Virus record (IMG/VR): IMGVR_UViG_2778261179_000006
Span: 488-64,487 of that record
Length of the DNA: 64,000 nucleotides
Source of the DNA: a virus
Lineage: Duplodnaviria > Heunggongvirae > Uroviricota > Caudoviricetes
Reading direction: 5' to 3' (one strand)
Positions 9,631 through 19,484 of the stretch are shown in pieces. A program made the translations under genes and the position numbers. Numbering within the stretch: position 1 is the stretch's first letter; each line of letters starts with the position of its first letter. Below the pieces are notes generated by a model, which was not told where the DNA came from, ran no database searches, and saw nothing but the letters and a program-made list of their open reading frames with translations.

Positions 9631-12600
9631 ATGAACAAGCTATCTATGGGAGTGTTTCGCTGTTCAAGTGTCAGCGAAATATTGAAATACATTAGGGCAA
9701 TAACATCTCACCGAGCGCCGATTAAATACGGCGTGGAAAAGGTGGAAGGCAAAAGCTATGACCGACTGCGCCGTGAGGCGAATCAGAAGGCGATAGATTT
9801 GCTTAATTCGCTGGTGGACGGCGCGACACTGACAGATGAACAGCGCCAGATCCTGGCTGGGTACACCGGTGAAGGCGGCATTGGCGGGTCCGTCTCCGAA
9901 TATTACACACCAAAGCCGATAGCTGAAGGTGTCTGGGAGATCATGAAGCTCTACGGCGCGGACGTAGGTAACACTCTGGAACCATCGGCGGGCACCGGCG
10001 TTTTTAATGAGACAAAACCGGTTGGCACGGTGATGACCGCGACTGAGATCAGCAGTGTTTCCGGTCGTATAAACCAGCTGTTACATCCGGAAGACAGCGT
10101 ACAGATTTCCCCGTTCGAACAACTGGCTGTAAGCACGCCTAACGATTCATTCGACCATGTTGTGGGTAACGTTCCGTTCGGTGGTCGTGATAACACACGC
10201 AACATCGATAAGCCTTACGCAGAAGAAACGGACATGGGTTCTTACTTCATGCTCCGCATGCTGGACAAGATAAAGCCAGGCGGATTCATGTGCGTGATTG
10301 TGCCGCCGTCCATTGTTTCAGGTTCAAACATGAAGCGGTTACGCCTGCGCCTATCACGGAAAGCTGAATTTCTTGGTGCCCACCGCTTGCCTACCGGTAC
10401 TTTTGACGCAAACGGGACCAGTACGGTCGTAGATGTGGTGCTGATGCGCAAACATCCGGCAGAGATGGCTGAGAAAATCCCCCTGGTGGATGAAAGCACT
10501 CTTGAATCGGCAAATGTGCTTTGGCCAACGTTTATTTCTGGCAAGTGGTTTGAAAAGGACGGCCGCCGGTTTGTTCATGGCACCCAGGAAAAGGGCTTCC
10601 AGGGGCGTATTGAGGTTCGTGCCGACGGTCAGATTGATAACCAGGCTCTTAAAGCGAAGCTGATTCATCGTTTCGAAAGCCGTATCGACTGGTCTTTGCT
10701 CGATATGGCTGAACCGTCACCGACCGCAGATGTTGTTGGTGAAGGGGAAATGCGCCTGATTAATGGCGTATGGCAAAAATATGCTGGTGGTCGCTGGATT
10801 GAAGCTGATGCCGGGAAGGAGCTGAAGATTGATGTTGCCAGTTATGGCGCGGATAGCTGGGAGGCTCTTCAGCGTAACCTGACTACCACAGAAGGTCGTC
10901 TCGGCATGACATTTACCCAGATGGCAAATGTCCGCGATAAGTACACCACATCAATCAGCGACGATATGGTGCAGCTGGTGGACTGGATTAACAGCCAGCC
11001 TGAAAAATACCGTGAACGCTTGTATCGTGGGGCGATGATTGGCCGGATGTTAATTGAATATCAGGACATGAAGGCCGCCGGGCATAGTGCTGAACAAATC
11101 GAACAGCAGCGCCTTTCTCTGGTATCCCGTTTACAGGCAGAGATTGACCGTTTTGGTAACCCCGGTCGCGGTCCGATAGCGAAATTATCGGGGAGCGGTG
11201 CGCGCGCCTGGTTTGCTTTCCGTGGTGCAATTAAGCTGGATGGCACTATTTCTGACGAGCTGACAGGAAAACTGGTTACGCATGATTCCAGCGCCAGTTA
11301 TGACTCCACCAGCTATCAGGACACCCTGCGTTATCTCTACAGTGATCTCACTCGCGATCCAATCCAGCTCGATGATTTCCGCCTTGCGTTTACCGGCGAA
11401 CTGCCAGCCAGTGATGACGAGTTGCTTAATTTATTGGCCAGCATCCCTGGTATTGCGGTTTCACCGTATGGCGGGATTGTTCCGTTCGCCCGCGCCACCA
11501 GCGGCGACATTAACGAGATAGTGGCTCCAAAACAGGAATTCCTTGCCACACTCCCCGACGGTCCAGTAAAGAACAACGTCCTTAATCAGCTGGCAGCGAT
11601 CGAAGAGAAGCGCATCAAGACGCCAGCAGAGAATATCCGCTTTAAGCTCAATAGCCGTTGGTTCGACCGCTCCGTCATTCTGGAGTTTTTGCAGGAAAAC
11701 GGCTATCCGGATCTGCGCTATGTGCAGTCAGTGCAGCTGGAAGGCGACGAAATGGTTTCTGACACCTATCACGGTGGTGATGGTCTGTTCGTCGGGCACC
11801 GATACGGTGTCGTCCAGCGCAAGGATAAAGAAACAGGCGAGATCCGCTACGAGTGGGACCGTAAATCAGGTGAAAACGCGACCGGGTTCCCGGCACAGCT
11901 GGAAAAGTATCTCAATGGTGCGCGTATCGGTGGCAAAGATAGCGCGACGGCGAACGGCTACCGCGAGCAGATGGCACTGCTTGAGGACCAGTTCAATAAG
12001 TGGATCAAGACGCACGATCGCTACGATGAGCTGGTTGCCAAATACAACGATGTGTTCAATAGCAATATCCCGTATGAACACTCTGGCGATCCGCTTGGGT
12101 TGAAGGGATTAAGCGGTAAGCGCCAGCCATTTGATTACCAGAATAGCGAGGTGCGCCGACTGTCCGAAGATGGGCGCGGCATCCTTGGCTTCGGCACCGG
12201 GCTGGGTAAAACCACGACCGCGCTGGCGCTTGAGGCGTTCAACTATGAGAACGGTCGCTCCACCCGTACTGCGTATGTAGTGCCTAAATCAGTGCTGGAA
12301 AACTGGTATTACGAAGCAAAAGAATTCCTGAGTGAAGAGGCATTCAGTAACTACCTGTTCGTCGGTCTTGATGTGCTGATGGATGGCGATCAGATTCGCC
12401 AGGTGCCGGTGCTCGATGAGAACGGTAAACCTGTTCTTGGTACTGATGGCACTCCAGTTATGCGCGATGCTCTTAAGCTGGCAGATGAAGCCACTATCAC
12501 GGCGCGGATGAACGCGATCCCGCACTCAAATTACCGTGCAGTCGTGTTTACCAAAGAACAATACGCCCGCATTCCGCTACGTGATGACACCGTAGATGAG

Positions 12601-15600
12601 CATGCACAGGATATGCTTTATGACTTCGTTGCCGCCGGACGCGTAGCCAGCGCAATGGACTCCGACTCCCACCGCAAAGAGGCCGCGCGTCGCCGGGTAT
12701 TGTCGGAGTATTCAGATACCGGCACCGAAAAAGCAGAGAAGTATCCGTACTTTGAGGATATGGGCTTCGATAGTGTGATCGCTGACGAAGGTCACAACTA
12801 CCGCAATAGCTATAAAAATGGTCGCGAAGCGTCACAACTGGCCTATCTGCCCACCAGCGCGGTGGCGCAATCGGCGCGAGATATGGCAATTAAAAACGCG
12901 TACCTGATGAAAAAGAATGGCGGGCGCGGGCCGGTTCTCCTGACTGCAACGCCAGTCGTTAACACCCCGATCGATGCATACAACATGCTTTCTCATGTTC
13001 TGCCGAAGGAATACTGGCAGAACATGGGGATCTACGGTCCTGATGACTTCGTTAAATTCTTCGGCAAGACCAGGCTGGAAACGGTACAGAAAATCAGCGG
13101 TGAAGTTGAAGAAAAAATGGCGCTGGTGGGCTTTGAAAACCTTGATGCGCTGCGCGGTATATTCCATCGCTGGGTAACGCTTAAAACGGCGGAAGACGTT
13201 AAGGATACCGTGGAGATCCCGGAGCTGGACGAACACCAGCAGGATGCACCACTTACTGAAGAACAACTGGCGGCGTATGAAGAATTGCGTCAGCAGGCGG
13301 AAGCGGCGGCCAAAGCCAACAATGGCGTAACGACCTCGGTCAATGAAGACGGCGTGATTGAGCACGAGAAAGCCCGTCCGATCTTCTCAATAATCAGGGA
13401 TATGGACCGCGTATGTACTGACATGGACCTGTACTATCGCCGGATCACCTATCGTTTCCTGCCGGAGTACGCCGATGCGGTGCAGCAGCTGGCGGACAGT
13501 TTGCCTAAACAAGCCACCAGCGAAGACGACGACAGTGATGATTCAATCACGCAGCAATCGCAATACTCCCTGATAGATAAGGGCGAGTTTATTCAGTTGC
13601 AGGTTCCGGAAGCGTTCGAGCAGGAAGTGAATAAGCGCCTGGCCAGGTTTGGCATTGACGAACAGACCGTAACTCACCCCGTTACGCCCAAATACGCGAA
13701 GCTGATCGCCACGCTGAAGGAGTTTTTCCCGGAAGGTAAGCAAATCATCTTCACCGATGAAAAAACGCAGCACCAGAAGCTCAAGCGCATTATCTGCAAT
13801 GCTCTAAACCTTGAACCTTCAAAGGTGGGGATCCTGAATGCTCAGACGGTTGCCGAGGCAGGTAAAACCGGTAAGAAACTGAAAGCGGTTAAACCGCCGA
13901 AAGAGCTACCGGATGAACCAACAGATGCACAGATAGCGAAATACAACGAGCAAATGGCTCTGTATGACGCCTATATCGCGCAGCAAAATGAAATGTCGTT
14001 GGGCGGTCTGGAAAAGATTGCAGCCGACTTCCAGGAGGGCCGGACTCCGATCATCATCTGCAACAAAAAGGCAGAGGTGGGTATCAACCTGCATCGAGGA
14101 ACGACGGATATCCACCACCTGACGTTGCCGTGGACACCAGCCAGTATCGCACAGCGTAACGGTCGCGGTGCCCGAGTTGGTTCCAACCGTGCAAGCGTTC
14201 GCGTTCACTACTACTGCGGCAAGGGGTCTTTCGATGAATACCGACTGAAGACGCTGAAGCGTAAAGCAGGCTGGATCTCCGATATCCTCCGTTCAGATAA
14301 GTCAGAAATGGAGAACGCCGACGCCAATGACATGATCGAAATGCAGATGTATACCGCGAAGGATGACGGCGAACGTCTGGCAATGATGCAGGTTCAAATG
14401 GATAAGGCGAAAGCTGCGAAACGCGCTCGCCAGAAAGAACAGGCTACTATCGACCTTCAGAACTACATCAAGGCGCAGCACGCAGCTGGCGAGGATGTGG
14501 AGGTACTTACCGCTGAATTAGAGCGAAGCAAAGCGGAACTTGAAAAGACCACCGCCGAGGTAGCTAAATTCAAACAGGCGGCAATGGCCAAGGCAGCGGA
14601 TAACGCAGACTGGAAGGCCCGCTGGGGGAGTGTCCATCACACAGACCGTATGTTGTTAGCACAGTATCGCGCGTCGTTGAAAAGCGCCATTCAGCGCAAG
14701 GCTAATATCTCTCAGGCCATCTCCCGCTATGAGAAATTATTGAACCGTACTCAGAAGGCCGCGACGGATATCAAACGCCTGCGCCCGCTGGTGGAGGATG
14801 CAATAAATAAAGGCATTCTGGATATTGATCCTGACATGGTTAACCATGCGAGTGAGTTCCTTGTTATCGGCGATCGCTCATGGCGTGTAGGCCAATACTA
14901 CGATTGTGCCGGTGATATCGTTCGCATTAAGTCGCTGGACTTCGACAGCCAGCGCGCAGACGTGGAGATCATCTTTACCTTCAAAGGCACCAAATCGGGT
15001 AACTGGGATGTGAAGACGCTGGATAAACAGGTTGATGTAACTCCTGATGAAGATGCTGTTATGCAGAAAATCAGTGGTGGCGTCTCCATCGCCGGGATTA
15101 ACGACATCATTTCCTGTGACGATTTCTACCGTTTCCAGCAGCGCGGCATGATCAAAATCACTGACTCATACGGCGTTCAGACTACAGAGTCAGGCTATAG
15201 CATTGATTTAGTTGGTACCTATACGGACCCACTGAAGCATGCGGTTTACCCGGATCGCCGTGACGGCGCGCTGAAGTCGTCAATTGCAAAATGGGTGCTT
15301 GGTATGATGTCGGAAGGGAATAACCGCCAGATCCGTTCGGCAGAAACATTCCTGGTTGAATTGTTTGGCTCCAATTATGGCGATGTAATCGCGTCATACG
15401 GAGATACGCTATCCCCTGAAGCAATTCAGGAGAAAATAGCGGATGCGATCGCAAAAATGCCGGAGAAAACAAGCCAGGGGGCTACTCGTAACGGGGATTC
15501 TGAACTTGAGGTCACCAATGCCATTTTCGGTACCCATGAGTTCCGGGCGTCAGATTATGAGATCACCACAGCACAGTTTGGCACCATTGGCATTTACAGC

Positions 15601-16398
15601 AATAAAGCCGAGATCAAGCAGGCAATGGACGCAGCAAGCGCGCGCATCGCAGCAGAACGGGAAGCCAATCTGAATCATGCAGTCGCCGCACTGACTCAAT
15701 CGTGGGTAACAGCAATCAGGGAGGCCGCCACCACAGGGAAAATCACACCTGCAATTGCGGATGTCGTAAACGACGGCTCTAAATTTATGGATGCCTATCA
15801 AATGGATGCGGTGCAGTTGCCATCAGCCTATGGCCAACTCAGCTATCGCATGACCTACAACCTGGTATCAATGTTTTCCGACCTTGCCATCCTTGGGCTG
15901 GTGGATCTTAACGAGGTTACGCCGGAATTGCTCAGCATGCGCAAGAATCATGTGGAGATATTGCAGAGAATTAACACGGTTCTTGCCGGGCGCACCGATG
16001 AAGAGAAACAGGCCGACGCTGATCGGATAAACCTGGCCCTTGGCAACATCACGGAGGAAGAAATTGCCGCCAGAAACGAGAAACAAGAAGAGTTATCATC
16101 AATACAGGGTGATGCCACCAGCATAGCTCAGTCTCTTGGTCTGAATTATCGCGTATCCACCGCCGACCTGAAGATGATGTACGCACCGAAATTCGCCGCT
16201 GGCGAGGTATTTGGGCTTCAGGAAGCCTCAGGCATGAAAGGCGTTCTTTTCCGTGCGAAAGACGCAATCAAGGCGAAATTCGGCGCTCGCTGGCTGCCAG
16301 CGAAGGCGAAGAACAGCGATTTCCCGGGTAACTGGTGGATTATCGAGACAAAACACAACGTGGCGGACGTTCTGGCCGTCATCCAACAATACGCATAA
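9631..16398 (+). CDS. darB: DarB antirestriction protein: N-terminal DNA methyltransferase-like domain, central/C-terminal SF2 helicase domain
   Basis: 2255-aa ORF, the size of P1 DarB; N-terminal MTase-like region (LEPSAGTGVF, NVPFGG), helicase-type motifs (FGTGLGKTT, DEGHNYRN). Confidence 0.92.
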   Translation: MNKLSMGVFRCSSVSEILKYIRAITSHRAPIKYGVEKVEGKSYDRLRREANQKAIDLLNSLVDGATLTDEQRQILAGYTGEGGIGGSVSEYYTPKPIAEGVWEIMKLYGADVGNTLEPSAGTGVFNETKPVGTVMTATEISSVSGRINQLLHPEDSVQISPFEQLAVSTPNDSFDHVVGNVPFGGRDNTRNIDKPYAEETDMGSYFMLRMLDKIKPGGFMCVIVPPSIVSGSNMKRLRLRLSRKAEFLGAHRLPTGTFDANGTSTVVDVVLMRKHPAEMAEKIPLVDESTLESANVLWPTFISGKWFEKDGRRFVHGTQEKGFQGRIEVRADGQIDNQALKAKLIHRFESRIDWSLLDMAEPSPTADVVGEGEMRLINGVWQKYAGGRWIEADAGKELKIDVASYGADSWEALQRNLTTTEGRLGMTFTQMANVRDKYTTSISDDMVQLVDWINSQPEKYRERLYRGAMIGRMLIEYQDMKAAGHSAEQIEQQRLSLVSRLQAEIDRFGNPGRGPIAKLSGSGARAWFAFRGAIKLDGTISDELTGKLVTHDSSASYDSTSYQDTLRYLYSDLTRDPIQLDDFRLAFTGELPASDDELLNLLASIPGIAVSPYGGIVPFARATSGDINEIVAPKQEFLATLPDGPVKNNVLNQLAAIEEKRIKTPAENIRFKLNSRWFDRSVILEFLQENGYPDLRYVQSVQLEGDEMVSDTYHGGDGLFVGHRYGVVQRKDKETGEIRYEWDRKSGENATGFPAQLEKYLNGARIGGKDSATANGYREQMALLEDQFNKWIKTHDRYDELVAKYNDVFNSNIPYEHSGDPLGLKGLSGKRQPFDYQNSEVRRLSEDGRGILGFGTGLGKTTTALALEAFNYENGRSTRTAYVVPKSVLENWYYEAKEFLSEEAFSNYLFVGLDVLMDGDQIRQVPVLDENGKPVLGTDGTPVMRDALKLADEATITARMNAIPHSNYRAVVFTKEQYARIPLRDDTVDEHAQDMLYDFVAAGRVASAMDSDSHRKEAARRRVLSEYSDTGTEKAEKYPYFEDMGFDSVIADEGHNYRNSYKNGREASQLAYLPTSAVAQSARDMAIKNAYLMKKNGGRGPVLLTATPVVNTPIDAYNMLSHVLPKEYWQNMGIYGPDDFVKFFGKTRLETVQKISGEVEEKMALVGFENLDALRGIFHRWVTLKTAEDVKDTVEIPELDEHQQDAPLTEEQLAAYEELRQQAEAAAKANNGVTTSVNEDGVIEHEKARPIFSIIRDMDRVCTDMDLYYRRITYRFLPEYADAVQQLADSLPKQATSEDDDSDDSITQQSQYSLIDKGEFIQLQVPEAFEQEVNKRLARFGIDEQTVTHPVTPKYAKLIATLKEFFPEGKQIIFTDEKTQHQKLKRIICNALNLEPSKVGILNAQTVAEAGKTGKKLKAVKPPKELPDEPTDAQIAKYNEQMALYDAYIAQQNEMSLGGLEKIAADFQEGRTPIIICNKKAEVGINLHRGTTDIHHLTLPWTPASIAQRNGRGARVGSNRASVRVHYYCGKGSFDEYRLKTLKRKAGWISDILRSDKSEMENADANDMIEMQMYTAKDDGERLAMMQVQMDKAKAAKRARQKEQATIDLQNYIKAQHAAGEDVEVLTAELERSKAELEKTTAEVAKFKQAAMAKAADNADWKARWGSVHHTDRMLLAQYRASLKSAIQRKANISQAISRYEKLLNRTQKAATDIKRLRPLVEDAINKGILDIDPDMVNHASEFLVIGDRSWRVGQYYDCAGDIVRIKSLDFDSQRADVEIIFTFKGTKSGNWDVKTLDKQVDVTPDEDAVMQKISGGVSIAGINDIISCDDFYRFQQRGMIKITDSYGVQTTESGYSIDLVGTYTDPLKHAVYPDRRDGALKSSIAKWVLGMMSEGNNRQIRSAETFLVELFGSNYGDVIASYGDTLSPEAIQEKIADAIAKMPEKTSQGATRNGDSELEVTNAIFGTHEFRASDYEITTAQFGTIGIYSNKAEIKQAMDAASARIAAEREANLNHAVAALTQSWVTAIREAATTGKITPAIADVVNDGSKFMDAYQMDAVQLPSAYGQLSYRMTYNLVSMFSDLAILGLVDLNEVTPELLSMRKNHVEILQRINTVLAGRTDEEKQADADRINLALGNITEEEIAARNEKQEELSSIQGDATSIAQSLGLNYRVSTADLKMMYAPKFAAGEVFGLQEASGMKGVLFRAKDAIKAKFGARWLPAKAKNSDFPGNWWIIETKHNVADVLAVIQQYA

Positions 16399-16872: not shown

Positions 16873-17117
16873 AAAAGCGATACTACACAGTAAAGCATGG
16901 GACGCTACGAGCATTACAAGAGTTTGCTGATAAGCATAACGTTGAAGTGCGCAGGGAAGGGGGAAGTAAAGCTCTGCGCATGTACCGCCCGGACGGGAAA
17001 TGGCGTACGGTCGTCGATTTCAAAACTAACAGCGTTCCCCAGGGCGTCCGCGACCGGGCATTCGAAGAATGGGAGCAAATCATCATAGATAATGCATTGC
17101 TCCTGAATGCTGATTAA
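16869..17117 (+). CDS. lxc: Lxc/Bof, C1 co-repressor modulator
   Basis: 82-aa ORF, the size and position of P1 Lxc (Bof). Confidence 0.8.
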   Translation: MKKRYYTVKHGTLRALQEFADKHNVEVRREGGSKALRMYRPDGKWRTVVDFKTNSVPQGVRDRAFEEWEQIIIDNALLLNAD

Positions 17118-17123
17118 GTTTGT

Positions 17124-17150
17124 CTAGCCCGGTTAATACCGGGCTGGTTT
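17124..17150. terminator. Hairpin terminator between lxc and the convergent two-gene cassette
   Basis: AGCCCGG-TTAATA-CCGGGCT inverted repeat. Confidence 0.55.
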
Positions 17151-17175
17151 AGACATCTTAAGTGGGTGTTAATTT

Positions 17176-17685
17176 TTAATTATGGTTAATCATATCTAAC
17201 AGTATTTTTAGCTTCCTGCATGTGTTATCAATATCTTTACATAATATGACATCAAGGATGTTTGGTAGTCCTAATACCATATGAGAAATGAAACCCTCGC
17301 CAACTTGTAGATTATGGGTAGTCTCATCTGGATTCACGTATTCAATGGTTTTAGTTTTATTTATCCCATAATCTTTATAACAGATGATTACAGGAATGTT
17401 CTTCTGTTCAGCAATCTGCAACTCTATTCCTAGCCCTGTTGATGGAAAACTACATTCTGCAATTATTACATCAGATTTCTCAACCATATCTCTGTCCCAA
17501 ATGTAACAAAGTTTAGATTTGTTACTTTCAGGGCGCTTTGATAATTCTGGGTCACTATTTATCAAAGCATATTTTACGTTGTTATTTTGAGATAGACCTT
17601 TTGCAAGGCTGTGAATCCAATTACTGTACTCATGGAAAATTTCCCTTGGAACATGAGTTAAAGCGCATGCGATATATATATTCAT
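17176..17685 (-). CDS. DNPH1/Rcl or nucleoside 2-deoxyribosyltransferase-like protein (169 aa), candidate nucleotide N-glycosidase effector
   Basis: N-terminal IYIACAL, DRDMVEKSDVIIAEC and STGLGIELQIAEQKNIPVI resemble the GxGxE catalytic-Glu signature of DNPH1/NDT-fold enzymes; start codon overlaps the stop of the upstream gene (ATGA); AT-rich codon usage. Confidence 0.6.
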   Translation of the reverse strand: MNIYIACALTHVPREIFHEYSNWIHSLAKGLSQNNNVKYALINSDPELSKRPESNKSKLCYIWDRDMVEKSDVIIAECSFPSTGLGIELQIAEQKNIPVIICYKDYGINKTKTIEYVNPDETTHNLQVGEGFISHMVLGLPNILDVILCKDIDNTCRKLKILLDMINHN

Positions 17686-18725
17686 TAAGAAGCAGACCTT
17701 ACGTTTGGGATAAGAAATTGGTGTCCAGTAATTTCAGATGAAATTGCATCTATAAACTGTGACGGAGATTGTTGAATAAATTCAGCAATAATCCAGTTTT
17801 CTTTTTCATTTAGTAACTGTCTTAGCTTAAGTGGGTCATACCGACATAGCTCACTTAATCGATGCATAGCTGCTAGGGTTATAACCAATGGCGATATTGA
17901 AACAGAAGTATGCTCAGATTGATTGTTTTTACGTTTGAGATACCAAAGAGTCTCTGCGCCATTGATATAGTAAAGATTTCTTCTTATTTTTTGATGAAAT
18001 TCAGTTAATTGCGGCATGTTGGACGATTGATTTTCATTATAATCAAGTAATGACTCTACTGATTTTATTTTGTACTTTTCTCTTTCAAACAATTCGAACG
18101 CTGGCGGTAGAATGTCGAAAACTGTGTCGAACCGAAAATCCTTGGATAAAATCGCAGTGAAAAACAGGCTATTGTCTGACTCATTCAGAACGAACTCAGC
18201 ATCGATCAGTGGAATAAATATATCATCAGTTACATCATAAGTAAGGCAATATGTACGATGAATATATGGCAATCCAGAAAAAAGGTTTTTTATATTGTAC
18301 ACCCCCTCATGAGAGGTGCCGTCAATATATTTTGAAAAAGACGGAAGTATACCCTCATTTTTTATTTTTACTTTTATATCAGATAAGTTATCAATTTGGG
18401 CTGCATTTTCACCCCTAGCAACACCATGATGCTGTTTGAAGTTTATATTGCGAGATGAAAGTAACGCCTTTACTGCATTCATGAATGAATAATAGTGCAA
18501 AAGTGGGGCTGATTGGTTGGGTAAACCATTGGCCGCCTGATTAAATACTTTTGCTTGCTCCCAATAAAAAAGAGCCTCATCTTTTTCGTTTCGCTTTAAC
18601 CAGAGTTCGACAAAATCCCAATGACTGTATGTAAGTACATTCCTTGCGGTTAGGTCAGGGTTTAATGATGCTTTATGAGGCTTCATGACCTTGTTCCTAA
18701 TTTTCAGCGGCTTAATATTCATCAT
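17685..18725 (-). CDS. Hypothetical 346-aa protein, partner of the DNPH1-like protein; possible Rx6H (HEPN-like) motif near N-terminus, otherwise unrecognised
   Basis: ORF track; no Walker, methyltransferase or restriction motifs seen; ARNVLTYSH could be an Rx4-6H motif (unverified); translationally coupled to the downstream gene. Confidence 0.55.
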   Translation of the reverse strand: MMNIKPLKIRNKVMKPHKASLNPDLTARNVLTYSHWDFVELWLKRNEKDEALFYWEQAKVFNQAANGLPNQSAPLLHYYSFMNAVKALLSSRNINFKQHHGVARGENAAQIDNLSDIKVKIKNEGILPSFSKYIDGTSHEGVYNIKNLFSGLPYIHRTYCLTYDVTDDIFIPLIDAEFVLNESDNSLFFTAILSKDFRFDTVFDILPPAFELFEREKYKIKSVESLLDYNENQSSNMPQLTEFHQKIRRNLYYINGAETLWYLKRKNNQSEHTSVSISPLVITLAAMHRLSELCRYDPLKLRQLLNEKENWIIAEFIQQSPSQFIDAISSEITGHQFLIPNVRSAS

Positions 18726-18815
18726 TGTAATAATCCTCCACCCAAAGTTACTAGATTGTAAAATATATATTTTTGTTCCACAACAAAAATCTCTATTGGC
18801 TACTGACGTAATTAA

Positions 18816-19484
18816 TTATAAATAGTTTTCTTTGCCGGTAAGTAAGCCTTGAGGAACTCGCTTGTCGGCTAGACATTGGGTTCCGCGAATTATGTTAATC
18901 AGAGGGCTTAGTAACGATGTTTCCTGGCGGGCCTCAACTTCTCCAGCCATTGCCCTGATGTAGTCGGCGCTTGCAACGTTGTTATATTCCGTTGCGAAGC
19001 AGCATAACAACGACAGAACGTGCTCTGTCGTTATTTCGCTCCAGTTGATGTTGAAAAATTCATCGCCTTTTTTGTCGTGTTCGGAATCGAAGATGCTTTG
19101 GTGGAGGATGTATTTGCCGGATTCTTTGCGCGGTAACTTGATCGCTTTCTGGCGTTCCAGCTCCTTGTAAATCTGCATTGCTTCAATTAGTACCGGCCTG
19201 CCGTTCATGAAGGGATCGCGCAACCTTACACGCTGGCCAACTCGACCCGTAATAAAGCTGTTTTCCTCTTCCACCAGCACGATAAAACCCTTTTCCTCTT
19301 TTTCTCGCAATTCGCGCAGCAGCTGGAGTTCCATATCGCGGCGGCGTTCAGGGTAGCTGGTCCGCTCAGCCATTATCAACTCGTTGTTGATCCATGCAGC
19401 AGTCATTGACGCCGGTTTGCCGACGCTCATCGAAACAACGCATATTTTCTTATCCATAGCGCCCCTACAAAAAAGAAAAGCCAC
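18816..19484 (-). CDS. mat: Particle maturation protein Mat-like
   Basis: Position between ref and the lxc-proximal locus as in P1; alternative start at 19457 (MDKKICVV). Confidence 0.6.
   Translation of the reverse strand: MAFLFCRGAMDKKICVVSMSVGKPASMTAAWINNELIMAERTSYPERRRDMELQLLRELREKEEKGFIVLVEEENSFITGRVGQRVRLRDPFMNGRPVLIEAMQIYKELERQKAIKLPRKESGKYILHQSIFDSEHDKKGDEFFNINWSEITTEHVLSLLCCFATEYNNVASADYIRAMAGEVEARQETSLLSPLINIIRGTQCLADKRVPQGLLTGKENYL

What the first reader, a model, noticed from the sequence alone, without database searches (positions are those of the whole stretch)
17124..18815. AT-rich two-gene cassette at the lxc-mat locus: 346-aa unknown protein plus DNPH1/NDT-like protein, candidate undescribed defence or abortive-infection system
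As I recall the P1 map, the interval between lxc and mat holds the res/mod type III R-M genes. Here it is a compact 1.6 kb cassette on the opposite strand, bounded by the lxc terminator hairpin and the mat stop. It is markedly AT-rich relative to its flanks and consists of two translationally coupled genes (ATGA overlap at 17685). The 169-aa product carries IYIACAL, DRDMVEKSDVIIAEC and STGLGIELQIAEQKNIPVI, which resemble the catalytic-Glu signature of DNPH1/Rcl and nucleoside 2-deoxyribosyltransferase enzymes, so it may cleave (deoxy)nucleotide N-glycosidic bonds or bind a nucleotide signal. The 346-aa partner has no motif I can place, apart from a possible Rx6H near the N-terminus. I do not recognise this pairing as any named defence system.
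Basis: partly seen in the sequence, partly recalled or inferred. Interest (0 to 1): 0.88.

Follow-up and report, generated by a model that had tools for sequence, protein, structure and literature searches.

The report
Uncharacterised two-gene candidate defence cassette in P1
A P1-like phage-plasmid carries, in the slot where P1 keeps its restriction system, a widespread two-gene module (a split HEPN-fold "YaaC" protein plus a DNPH1-like nucleotide-cleaving enzyme) that looks like an undescribed anti-phage system but has never been tested.

Summary
Window 17118-18875 is an AT-rich (34-36% GC) cargo segment between lxc and mat of a P1-like phage-plasmid. It carries two coupled minus-strand genes.

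- **Gene A (346 aa)** is a Pfam YaaC-family protein. Its confident model is a HEPN four-helix bundle split by a ~175-aa insert with no recognisable solved fold.
- **Gene B (169 aa)** has the nucleoside 2-deoxyribosyltransferase/DNPH1/MilB fold. The catalytic Tyr, Asp and Glu and the phosphate-binding Ser are conserved.

The pair is an obligate unit. Every close YaaC homologue examined (38/38) has the NDT-like gene directly downstream. Every NDT-like homologue checked from its own side (7/7) has YaaC upstream. The pair occurs in at least eight phyla, usually at lower GC than its flanks and often beside R-M, Gabija, Hachiman, AbiTii or Dpd genes.

In other P1-like elements the same slot holds the EcoPI R-M system, CapRel-SJ46, a SIR2 protein or a DUF2971 protein. 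The cassette is in 12% of P1-like PLSDB plasmids and 2% of complete E. coli genomes.

Neither protein matches PADLOC 2.0, and no paper found describes the pair. A defence or abortive-infection role is likely (~0.75). The mechanism is inferred only.

The parts
17118..18875 (.). Exchanged cargo segment of the lxc-mat slot. It contains the cassette plus the 3' end of mat.
   Evidence: blastn breakpoints against three other P1-like plasmids: left 17117-17121, right 18876/18934/18948. GC 0.34-0.36 against 0.46-0.54 in the flanks.
17124..17147 (.). GC-rich hairpin between the convergent lxc and NDT-like genes. It is terminator-like on both strands but lacks a clear U-tract.
   Evidence: RNA fold: + strand -25.4 kcal/mol (z -4.7), - strand -21.2 kcal/mol (z -6.8).
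17176..17685 (-). Gene B, 169 aa: an NDT/DNPH1/MilB-fold protein, predicted N-glycosidase acting on a nucleotide with a 5'-phosphate.
17685..18725 (-). Gene A, 346 aa: a YaaC-family protein. It is a HEPN four-helix bundle (about residues 35-91 and 279-333) split by a ~175-aa alpha/beta insert (100-278).
18726..18815 (-). 90-nt leader between the mat stop and the gene A start. Read by eye: a GGAGG ribosome-binding site (18739-18735) and a weak sigma-70-like promoter (-35 TTGTGG 18783-18778, 17-nt spacer, -10 TACAAT 18760-18755). A 16-nt inverted repeat (18762-18797) overlaps the -35 and spacer.
   Evidence: Sequence read. Inverted repeat I1. The consensus scan did not list the promoter because the -35 matches only 3 of 6 positions, so the promoter is my inference.

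Best explanation
The cassette is a horizontally mobile, two-gene anti-phage (abortive-infection type) module carried as exchangeable cargo in the lxc-mat defence slot of P1-like phage-plasmids.

Gene A (YaaC family) is the primary component. It is a HEPN-fold protein whose bundle is split by a ~175-aa insert. [quoted passage not shown] I infer that the insert senses infection or binds a ligand, and that the HEPN cleft cleaves RNA.

Gene B is an obligate enzymatic partner. It is a DNPH1/MilB-type N-glycosidase that cuts the base from a 5'-phosphorylated (deoxy)nucleotide (dNMP/NMP, possibly a modified or NAD-like nucleotide). This would drain nucleotides that the phage needs.

The two proteins are made in fixed ratio from one coupled transcript and act together.

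Shown: the folds, the conserved residues, the obligate linkage, mobility as a unit, and the defence-island and hotspot context. Inferred: RNase activity, substrate, trigger, which protein does the damage, and the anti-phage phenotype itself.

The confidence of 0.4 is for this specific division of labour. The general claim that the pair is a defence or conflict module I put at about 0.75.
For: **Slot**
- The same lxc-mat interval holds EcoPI mod/res in P1 and a type III R-M system in a Salmonella plasmid.
- It holds the 373-aa RelA/SpoT protein of phage SJ46. This matches the length and source of the validated CapRel-SJ46 (PMC9712102).
- It also holds a SIR2 protein and a DUF2971 protein, which hit PADLOC ThsA/PDC-S25 and PDC-S31.

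**Unit**
- 38/38 close YaaC homologues have the NDT-like gene 3-76 nt downstream.
- 5/5 IMG/VR loci and 2/2 genomes found from the NDT side have YaaC upstream.
- The pairwise identities of the two proteins co-vary (Pearson 0.74; Mantel 0 of 2000 permutations reach it), and GC is below the flanks in 34/35 loci.

**Context**
- The E. coli chromosomal homologue lies between a BrxR-type regulator with integrase and a Dpd cluster.
- In Kangiella it is next to AbiTii. In Bradyrhizobium it is next to Gabija-like genes.
- Neighbours across 33 loci include type I R-M, HamB, GajB, MADS and PDC-M19.

**Proteins**
- HEPN fold for gene A. AF0298 is the top hit, and the alternative-His idea comes from PMC3710099.
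- The same polar invariants are kept in YaaC homologues that lack a partner, so YaaC has a site of its own.
- NDT fold with Y4/D64/S82/E88 for gene B.
- NDT-like domains are known defence effectors in retron Ec86 (10.1101/2023.08.16.553469).
Against: - There is no experimental evidence of defence, toxicity or enzyme activity.
- The canonical HEPN Rx4-6H motif is absent. Many HEPN domains (sacsin, for example) are not nucleases.
- I could not obtain model coordinates, so I have not shown that the invariant His and Arg residues cluster in space.
- Both proteins are unusually conserved across phyla (median identity 48% and 54%). That is atypical for sensors that bind fast-evolving phage proteins.
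- About half of the YaaC family has no partner, so the family as a whole need not be defensive.
- One plasmid has a frameshifted NDT-like gene with an intact YaaC. NDT is therefore not strictly needed for viability, though this says little about defence.
- DefenseFinder and any post-2023 PADLOC release could not be run.
Confidence: 0.4

Rival explanations
1. Toxin plus enzymatic regulator. YaaC is a HEPN RNase toxin. The NDT-like enzyme is its antitoxin-like controller. It could bind the toxin, modify it covalently (type VII style, as MNT AMPylates HEPN toxins), or hydrolyse a nucleotide ligand that switches YaaC on (as ring nucleases switch off Csm6/Csx1). Infection or plasmid loss would release the RNase.
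For: - The NDT-like family is never found without YaaC.
- The catalytic residues of NDT are invariant, as expected for an enzyme-type antitoxin.
- Rossmann-like DprA-fold antitoxins are known in PsyrTA and ShosTA.
- A plasmid-prophage would benefit from addiction.
Against: - Forty evaluable YaaC homologues with the same invariant site have no partner of any recurrent kind. YaaC therefore does not generally need neutralising.
- One plasmid keeps an intact YaaC with a frameshifted NDT-like gene.
- The gene order (putative toxin first) is unusual for type II and type VII systems.
Confidence: 0.25
2. Small-molecule signalling pair. The NDT-like enzyme (a TIR-related fold and a natural base-exchange catalyst) senses infection and makes a nucleotide-derived signal. 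The insert domain of YaaC binds the signal, which switches on the HEPN RNase. This would be analogous to Thoeris or to type III CRISPR with Csm6.
For: - HEPN RNases gated by a fused ligand-binding domain are an established design.
- The insert carries invariant H156, R157, R248, W261 and Y262, which would suit a nucleotide pocket.
- High cross-phylum conservation fits recognition of a small molecule.
Against: - YaaC homologues without a partner keep the same insert residues and have no linked synthase.
- Gene B's best sequence and structure matches are hydrolases and transferases of simple nucleotides, not signal synthases.
- No sensor domain is evident in a 169-aa enzyme.
Confidence: 0.1
3. 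Not immunity. The pair is an accessory nucleotide-salvage or RNA/nucleotide-housekeeping module, or a pure plasmid-stabilisation element, that happens to ride in a permissive slot.
For: - DNPH1, MilB and NDT enzymes are metabolic.
- Roughly half of the YaaC-family loci sampled lack the partner gene, which is compatible with a non-defence role.
- One paired locus lies in an ordinary chromosomal neighbourhood near IMPDH and CysS.
- Not every cargo in the slot is defensive. Examples are a regulator with a signal-peptide protein and an IS1 composite carrying glgS.
Against: - Patchy distribution across phyla, low GC in 34/35 hosts and neighbouring integrases.
- Repeated adjacency to R-M, Gabija, Hachiman, AbiTii and Dpd genes.
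- It occupies the slot used by EcoPI and CapRel-SJ46.
Confidence: 0.15
4. Counter-defence for the phage. P1 would use the pair, alongside the neighbouring darB and ulx anti-restriction genes, to destroy host immune nucleotides or host RNAs.
For: The cassette lies immediately beside darB-ulx-lxc. Nucleotide-degrading enzymes are a known anti-defence strategy.
Against: - The pair is rare in viral contigs (5 loci, 3 of them P1-like).
- It is common on bacterial chromosomes inside defence islands.
- The slot's other cargoes are host-protective systems.
Confidence: 0.05

Closest known systems
AF0298-like (UPF0332) HEPN-T and AbiV HEPN proteins (Anantharaman et al. 2013, PMC3710099)
   Different: YaaC is 346 aa, with a ~175-aa alpha/beta insert of no recognisable solved fold. 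There is no sequence-level match to any HEPN in PDB, Pfam HEPN families or PADLOC AbiV. The partner is not an MNT.
HEPN-MNT type VII toxin-antitoxin systems
   Different: The partner is NDT/DNPH1-like, not a nucleotidyltransferase. The gene order is HEPN first. There is no RX4HXY motif. YaaC also occurs widely without a partner.
DNPH1/Rcl, MilB and BlsM nucleotide N-glycosidases, and nucleoside 2-deoxyribosyltransferases
   Different: Identity is only 12-20%. The protein scores below Pfam's gathering score (22 against 28.8 bits). It has an extra conserved C-terminal module (Y116, N118-P119-D120, H124, Q127, G129, G131). It is strictly linked to YaaC and is mobile.
NDT-like effectors of type II-A retrons (Retron-Eco1/Ec86)
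   Same: An NDT-like domain with a catalytic Glu is used as the damaging arm of an anti-phage system, with depletion of adenine derivatives reported (10.1101/2023.08.16.553469).
   Different: The cassette has no reverse transcriptase or retron-like RNA match. There is no wHTH lobe, and no PADLOC retron-effector hit.
CapRel-SJ46 and EcoPI (cargo of the same P1 slot)
   Same: Identical genomic position between lxc and mat in P1-like elements. Both are experimentally established defences, EcoPI from textbook knowledge and CapRel-SJ46 from PMC9712102.
   Different: The proteins and chemistry are unrelated.
PsyrTA/RqlHI and ShosTA
   Same: Two-gene TA-like defence systems in which one partner has a Rossmann-like nucleotide-handling fold (DprA-like) and the other acts on nucleotides (PRTase).
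   Different: Different families (no PADLOC hit). In those systems the DprA-like protein is the antitoxin and a PRTase is the toxin.

Membership tests
Pfam YaaC (PF14175) | Score above the curated gathering threshold over most of the model | tested here: met
   156.5 bits against a cut-off of 27; residues 34-332 match model positions 18-307 of 307.
HEPN superfamily | Four-helix up-down bundle fold | tested here: met
HEPN superfamily | Canonical Rx4-6H motif at the end of helix 3 | tested here: not met
   The sequence there is H288-R289-L-S-E-L-C-R295-Y296, so the His position holds Arg.
HEPN superfamily (AF0298/AbiV variant) | Basic residue retained in the motif, plus an alternative conserved His from the helix 2-3 region forming the site | tested here: inconclusive
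   R289/R295 and an invariant H100 at the start of the insert fit the description in PMC3710099. Spatial proximity could not be measured because no coordinates were available.
HEPN superfamily | Metal-independent RNase activity | not testable with these tools
   Needs biochemistry.
Nucleoside 2-deoxyribosyltransferase / DNPH1 superfamily | Flavodoxin-like NDT fold | tested here: met
Nucleoside 2-deoxyribosyltransferase / DNPH1 superfamily | Catalytic Glu nucleophile, with the Asp and the beta-1 Tyr | tested here: met
   E88 and D64 align to Rcl E93 and D69. Y4, D64 and E88 are invariant in 53 sequences. The Tyr correspondence is by position in beta-1 and is my inference.
DNPH1/MilB subgroup (nucleoside 5'-monophosphate hydrolases) | Phosphate-binding Ser in the P-S-x-G motif | tested here: met
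   S82 aligns to Rcl S87 and is at least 90% conserved. The substrate itself was not tested.
Pfam Nuc_deoxyrib_tr (PF05014) | Score above the gathering threshold | tested here: not met
   22 bits against 28.8. Some homologues do pass in precomputed annotations.
HEPN-MNT type VII TA | Partner is a minimal nucleotidyltransferase | tested here: not met
   The partner has the NDT fold and no NTase hit.
Retron type II-A | Reverse transcriptase and msr/msd ncRNA next to the NDT-like effector | tested here: not met
   The segment has only two ORFs, no RT, no Rfam hit and no PADLOC hit.
Any system in PADLOC-DB 2.0.0 (includes Thoeris, PsyrTA, ShosTA, AbiV, ApeA, and the PDC and HEC candidates) | HMM match to a component | tested here: not met
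   Zero families at E <= 1 for both proteins.
Anti-phage defence system (generic) | Protection against phage in a challenge assay | not testable with these tools
   Only context evidence is available: the hotspot cargo and defence-island neighbours.

The most novel reading that the evidence does not exclude
The pair is a new nucleotide-surveillance immune pathway. The DNPH1-like enzyme acts on an infection-specific nucleotide, for example phage hydroxymethyl-pyrimidine dNMPs (the substrate class of DNPH1 and MilB) or an NAD-like compound. It either destroys that nucleotide or converts it by base exchange. The product or its depletion is then read by the unclassified insert domain of YaaC, which gates a non-canonical HEPN RNase. 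This would be a Thoeris-like or type III CRISPR-like logic built from entirely different parts. It would also give a function to the uncharacterised YaaC family.
Probability: 0.12. Interest if true: 0.85.

Novelty: new variant of a known kind. Interest (0 to 1): 0.62.

Why it matters
If it is confirmed as a defence system, four things follow.

- It would add a widespread system (2% of complete E. coli genomes, at least eight phyla) that the tools used here do not flag.
- It would give the first function to the Pfam YaaC family.
- It would show a HEPN domain split by a large insert of unknown fold.
- It would show a DNPH1/MilB-type nucleotide N-glycosidase used in bacterial immunity outside retrons.

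It would also establish the P1 lxc-mat interval, which already holds EcoPI and CapRel-SJ46, as a systematic place to mine new systems. The cassette is 1.7 kb with its own leader, so the claim is directly testable.

Tried and rejected
**Searches with no result**
- PADLOC 2.0, PHROGs and NCBIfam gave no real hit for either protein.
- A profile of the YaaC family against all PDB sequences gave nothing, even at E 10.
- Scanning the excised HEPN core and the excised insert against Pfam returned only YaaC itself.
- The afdb50 library was unavailable.
- Model coordinates are not exposed, so I could not test whether the invariant His and Arg residues cluster.
- Rfam found no RNA family, and there are no flanking repeats or att-like sites.
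- INPHARED phage records contain no copy of the cassette.

**Literature**
- 'YaaC' with HEPN or with 'defense system' returned nothing.
- Whole-word 'YaaC' hits were acronyms, MYB-binding or attC DNA consensus strings, or passing gene lists.
- 'deoxyribosyltransferase' with HEPN gave only the 2013 HEPN survey and retron papers.

**Leads that went nowhere**
- *Alternative partner for unpartnered YaaC genes:* none recurs. The only cluster was the C-terminal halves of split YaaC genes.
- *Natural single-gene knock-outs as a toxin/antitoxin test:* the IS1 composite removes nearly all of the cassette. The p10_578_3 'truncated YaaC' comes from three homopolymer-length differences and is probably sequencing error. 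Only pXH987-OQX has a plausible NDT frameshift. This is too thin to decide.
- *Fusion partners of the NDT-like domain in longer relatives:* no Pfam or PADLOC domains.
- *My recollection that PsyrA is NDT-like:* corrected to DprA-like after reading.
Full report
**1. What is there**

The window is a P1-like phage-plasmid. It carries darB (9631-16398), ulx and lxc (to 17117) on the plus strand. On the minus strand it carries mat (19484-18816), ref, c8 and cre (21847-20816).

Between lxc and mat, on the minus strand, lie two ORFs: gene A at 18725..17685 (346 aa) and gene B at 17685..17176 (169 aa).
- GC falls to 0.34-0.36 across them, against 0.46-0.54 on either side.
- The junction is TAATGA.
- A 90-nt leader carries a GGAGG ribosome-binding site.
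- By eye the leader also has a weak sigma-70-like promoter (TTGTGG-17-TACAAT). The consensus scan did not list it.
- A 16-nt inverted repeat overlaps that promoter.
- A strong hairpin (17124-17147) separates gene B from the convergent lxc.

**2. The slot is an exchangeable cargo site**

blastn against other P1-like plasmids shows homology ending at 17117-17121 and resuming at 18876-18948. The exchanged segment is therefore about 17118-18875. It includes the hairpin and the last codons of mat.

The same interval holds different cargo in other elements:

| Element | Cargo in the lxc-mat slot |
|---|---|
| P1 | mod (interrupted by IS5) and res of EcoPI |
| Salmonella plasmid | type III R-M system |
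| Phage SJ46 and an E. coli plasmid | 373-aa RelA/SpoT protein |
| Other plasmids | SIR2 protein; DUF2971 protein |
| One plasmid | regulator plus a signal-peptide protein |
| E. albertii plasmid | 132-aa unknown protein |
| At least four plasmids | IS1 composite that removed nearly all of the cassette |

The SJ46 protein matches the source and length of the experimentally validated CapRel-SJ46 (PMC9712102). It hits the PADLOC candidate PDC-S33. The SIR2 and DUF2971 proteins hit PADLOC ThsA/PDC-S25 and PDC-S31.

The present cassette occurs in 85 of 696 PLSDB plasmids that carry mat (12%), at 95-100% identity. It is in 109 of 5426 complete E. coli genomes, almost always on plasmids. None of the INPHARED phage records has it. 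It is therefore accessory cargo and not core P1.

**3. Gene A**

Pfam places it in the YaaC family (E 1.4e-45). I found no functional literature for this family. JGI labels some homologues UPF0332, a HEPN family.

The canonical Rx4-6H is absent. The end of helix 3 reads H288-R289-x5-R295-Y296. An invariant H100-G101 opens the insert. This matches the variant that Anantharaman et al. describe for AF0298-like and AbiV HEPN proteins: the motif His is lost, the basic residue is kept, and an alternative His comes from the helix 2-3 insert (PMC3710099).

**4. Gene B**

Sequence similarity to Nuc_deoxyrib_tr is sub-threshold, but the model is excellent (pLDDT 96.5).

Its best structural neighbours are:
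- TIR domains, close behind.

A family profile finds Rcl/DNPH1 in the PDB (E 3e-5). It aligns D64, S82 and E88 with Rcl D69, S87 (phosphate-binding) and E93 (nucleophile). Y4, D64 and E88 are invariant, and S82 is at least 90% conserved, in 53 homologues.

Gene B is thus very probably an active N-glycosidase or transferase acting on a ribose or deoxyribose that carries a 5'-phosphate. A conserved C-terminal module (Y116, NPD 118-120, H124, Q127, G129, G131) has no counterpart in the characterised enzymes.

**5. The two genes are one unit**

Both proteins have hundreds of homologues with matching contig sizes.

*From the YaaC side.* A scan of species-representative genomes returned 80 YaaC loci. 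I searched these and five loci fetched earlier with HMMs built from both families.
- All 38 loci whose YaaC scores E < 1e-133 have the NDT-like gene 3-76 nt downstream on the same strand.
- The 47 more distant YaaC genes (E 1e-59 to 1e-123) have none. Forty of them have enough downstream sequence to tell.
- No alternative recurrent neighbour appears beside these unpartnered genes.

*From the NDT side.* 5/5 IMG/VR loci and the Beijerinckia and Bradyrhizobium genomes have YaaC directly upstream.

*Family size.* The NDT-like family is small and tight: 34 representatives at E <= 1e-30 among 1.84 billion proteins.

*Co-inheritance.* Pairwise identities of the two proteins co-vary (Pearson 0.74; 0 of 2000 Mantel permutations reach this). 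The pair is lower in GC than its flanks in 34 of 35 loci, by 7.7 points on average.

*Hosts.* They span Gamma-, Beta- and Alphaproteobacteria, Myxococcota, Campylobacterota, Bacteroidota, Spirochaetota, Planctomycetota and Armatimonadota.

*Shared site.* Unpartnered and paired YaaC proteins share the same invariant polar residues: Q57, Y78, Y79, N83, K86, H100, H156, R157, R248, W261, Y262, H288, S291, E292, R295, E315 and E331. Residues specific to the paired clade sit in the N-terminal 30 residues and the C-terminal tail.

**6. Context elsewhere**

- An E. coli chromosomal homologue (59% identical) sits beside an integrase, between a BrxR-regulated cluster and a Dpd cluster.
- In Kangiella it follows AbiTii.
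- In Myxococcus it is near an integrase.
- In Bradyrhizobium it abuts Gabija-like genes.
- The two nearest ORFs on each side of 33 loci include type I R-M, ResIII/DEAD helicases, HamB, GajB, MADS, PDC-M19, PbeA and DUF488.

**7. Interpretation**

The hotspot, the island neighbours, the mobility and the protein families together make a conflict or defence role likely. I put this at about 0.75.

On mechanism, YaaC must have an output of its own, because unpartnered family members keep the same site. The NDT-like enzyme depends on YaaC, because it never occurs alone. I therefore favour YaaC as the sensor and effector (a HEPN-type RNase gated by its insert). The NDT-like enzyme would be an obligate nucleotide-cleaving co-effector.

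The main rival makes the NDT-like enzyme an enzymatic regulator or antitoxin of YaaC. A signalling model, a non-defence role and a counter-defence role are less likely but not excluded. Natural variants did not settle the roles.

**8. Novelty**

Neither protein matches any PADLOC 2.0 model. No paper in the searchable library describes the pair.

The parts belong to known superfamilies, and HEPN-based Abi/TA modules and NDT-like retron effectors are known. I therefore rate it a new variant of a known kind.

Limits: DefenseFinder and post-2023 catalogues could not be consulted, and nothing here is experimental.

Noticed in passing
window 18816-18948 (3' end of mat): The exchanged cargo segment includes the last ~20-44 codons of mat. 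Breakpoints against three other P1-like plasmids fall at 18876, 18934 and 18948, and mat hits in PLSDB start at query offsets 61, 72, 119, 125 and 133. The Mat C-terminus therefore changes with the cargo.
   Followed up: partly
window 18762-18797: A 16-nt inverted repeat (88% complementary, 4-nt loop) lies in the leader of gene A and overlaps the putative -35 and spacer. It could be an operator for autoregulation or a weak stop after mat.
   Followed up: no
P0293-P0315, P0322, P0333: A sister family of longer proteins (about 230-565 aa) carries a full-length copy of this NDT-like domain. The five sequences I read have the same motifs (GGITNVP, ALLDNE, VCYxxDQ, PSTGTGQELERA), with Phe or Met in place of the beta-1 Tyr, and long charged extensions. 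The ten I scanned have no Pfam or PADLOC domain in the extensions.
   Followed up: partly
L028-L088 (YaaC loci without a partner): About half of the YaaC genes sampled have no NDT-like gene and no recurrent neighbour, yet they keep the same invariant His/Arg residues. Four of them (L058, L062, L077, L086) are split into two ORFs.
   Followed up: partly
L099 (NZ_CP062902.1) and three similar plasmids: An IS1-flanked composite carrying glgS and an OB-fold gene has replaced nearly all of the cassette. The last 232 nt of the query (the 3' part of gene B) remain, and BLAST reports a second small matching piece that I did not map.
   Followed up: partly
L106 (pXH987-OQX), equivalent to window 17498-17499: A substitution plus a 1-nt deletion at codon W63 frameshifts the NDT-like gene while YaaC stays intact. 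In L105 (p10_578_3) three homopolymer-length differences 'truncate' YaaC, which is probably sequencing error.
   Followed up: yes
L003-L005 (E. coli chromosome/metagenome): A defence island holds a BrxR-family regulator, an integrase, the YaaC-NDT homologue, PTPS and a Dpd-type cluster (DpdD, PLD nuclease, large DEAD helicase). The segment upstream of BrxR differs between strains, with JetD_C-containing genes in one and three unannotated large ORFs in the others.
   Followed up: no
L102 (E. albertii p2RM15113): In this P1-like plasmid the slot holds a 132-aa unknown protein. The region upstream of lxc carries F18-type fimbrial genes where darB normally lies.
   Followed up: no
window 51737-53770: Three tRNA genes on the minus strand (anticodons CAT, TGT, GTT), as expected for a P1-like genome.
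   Followed up: no
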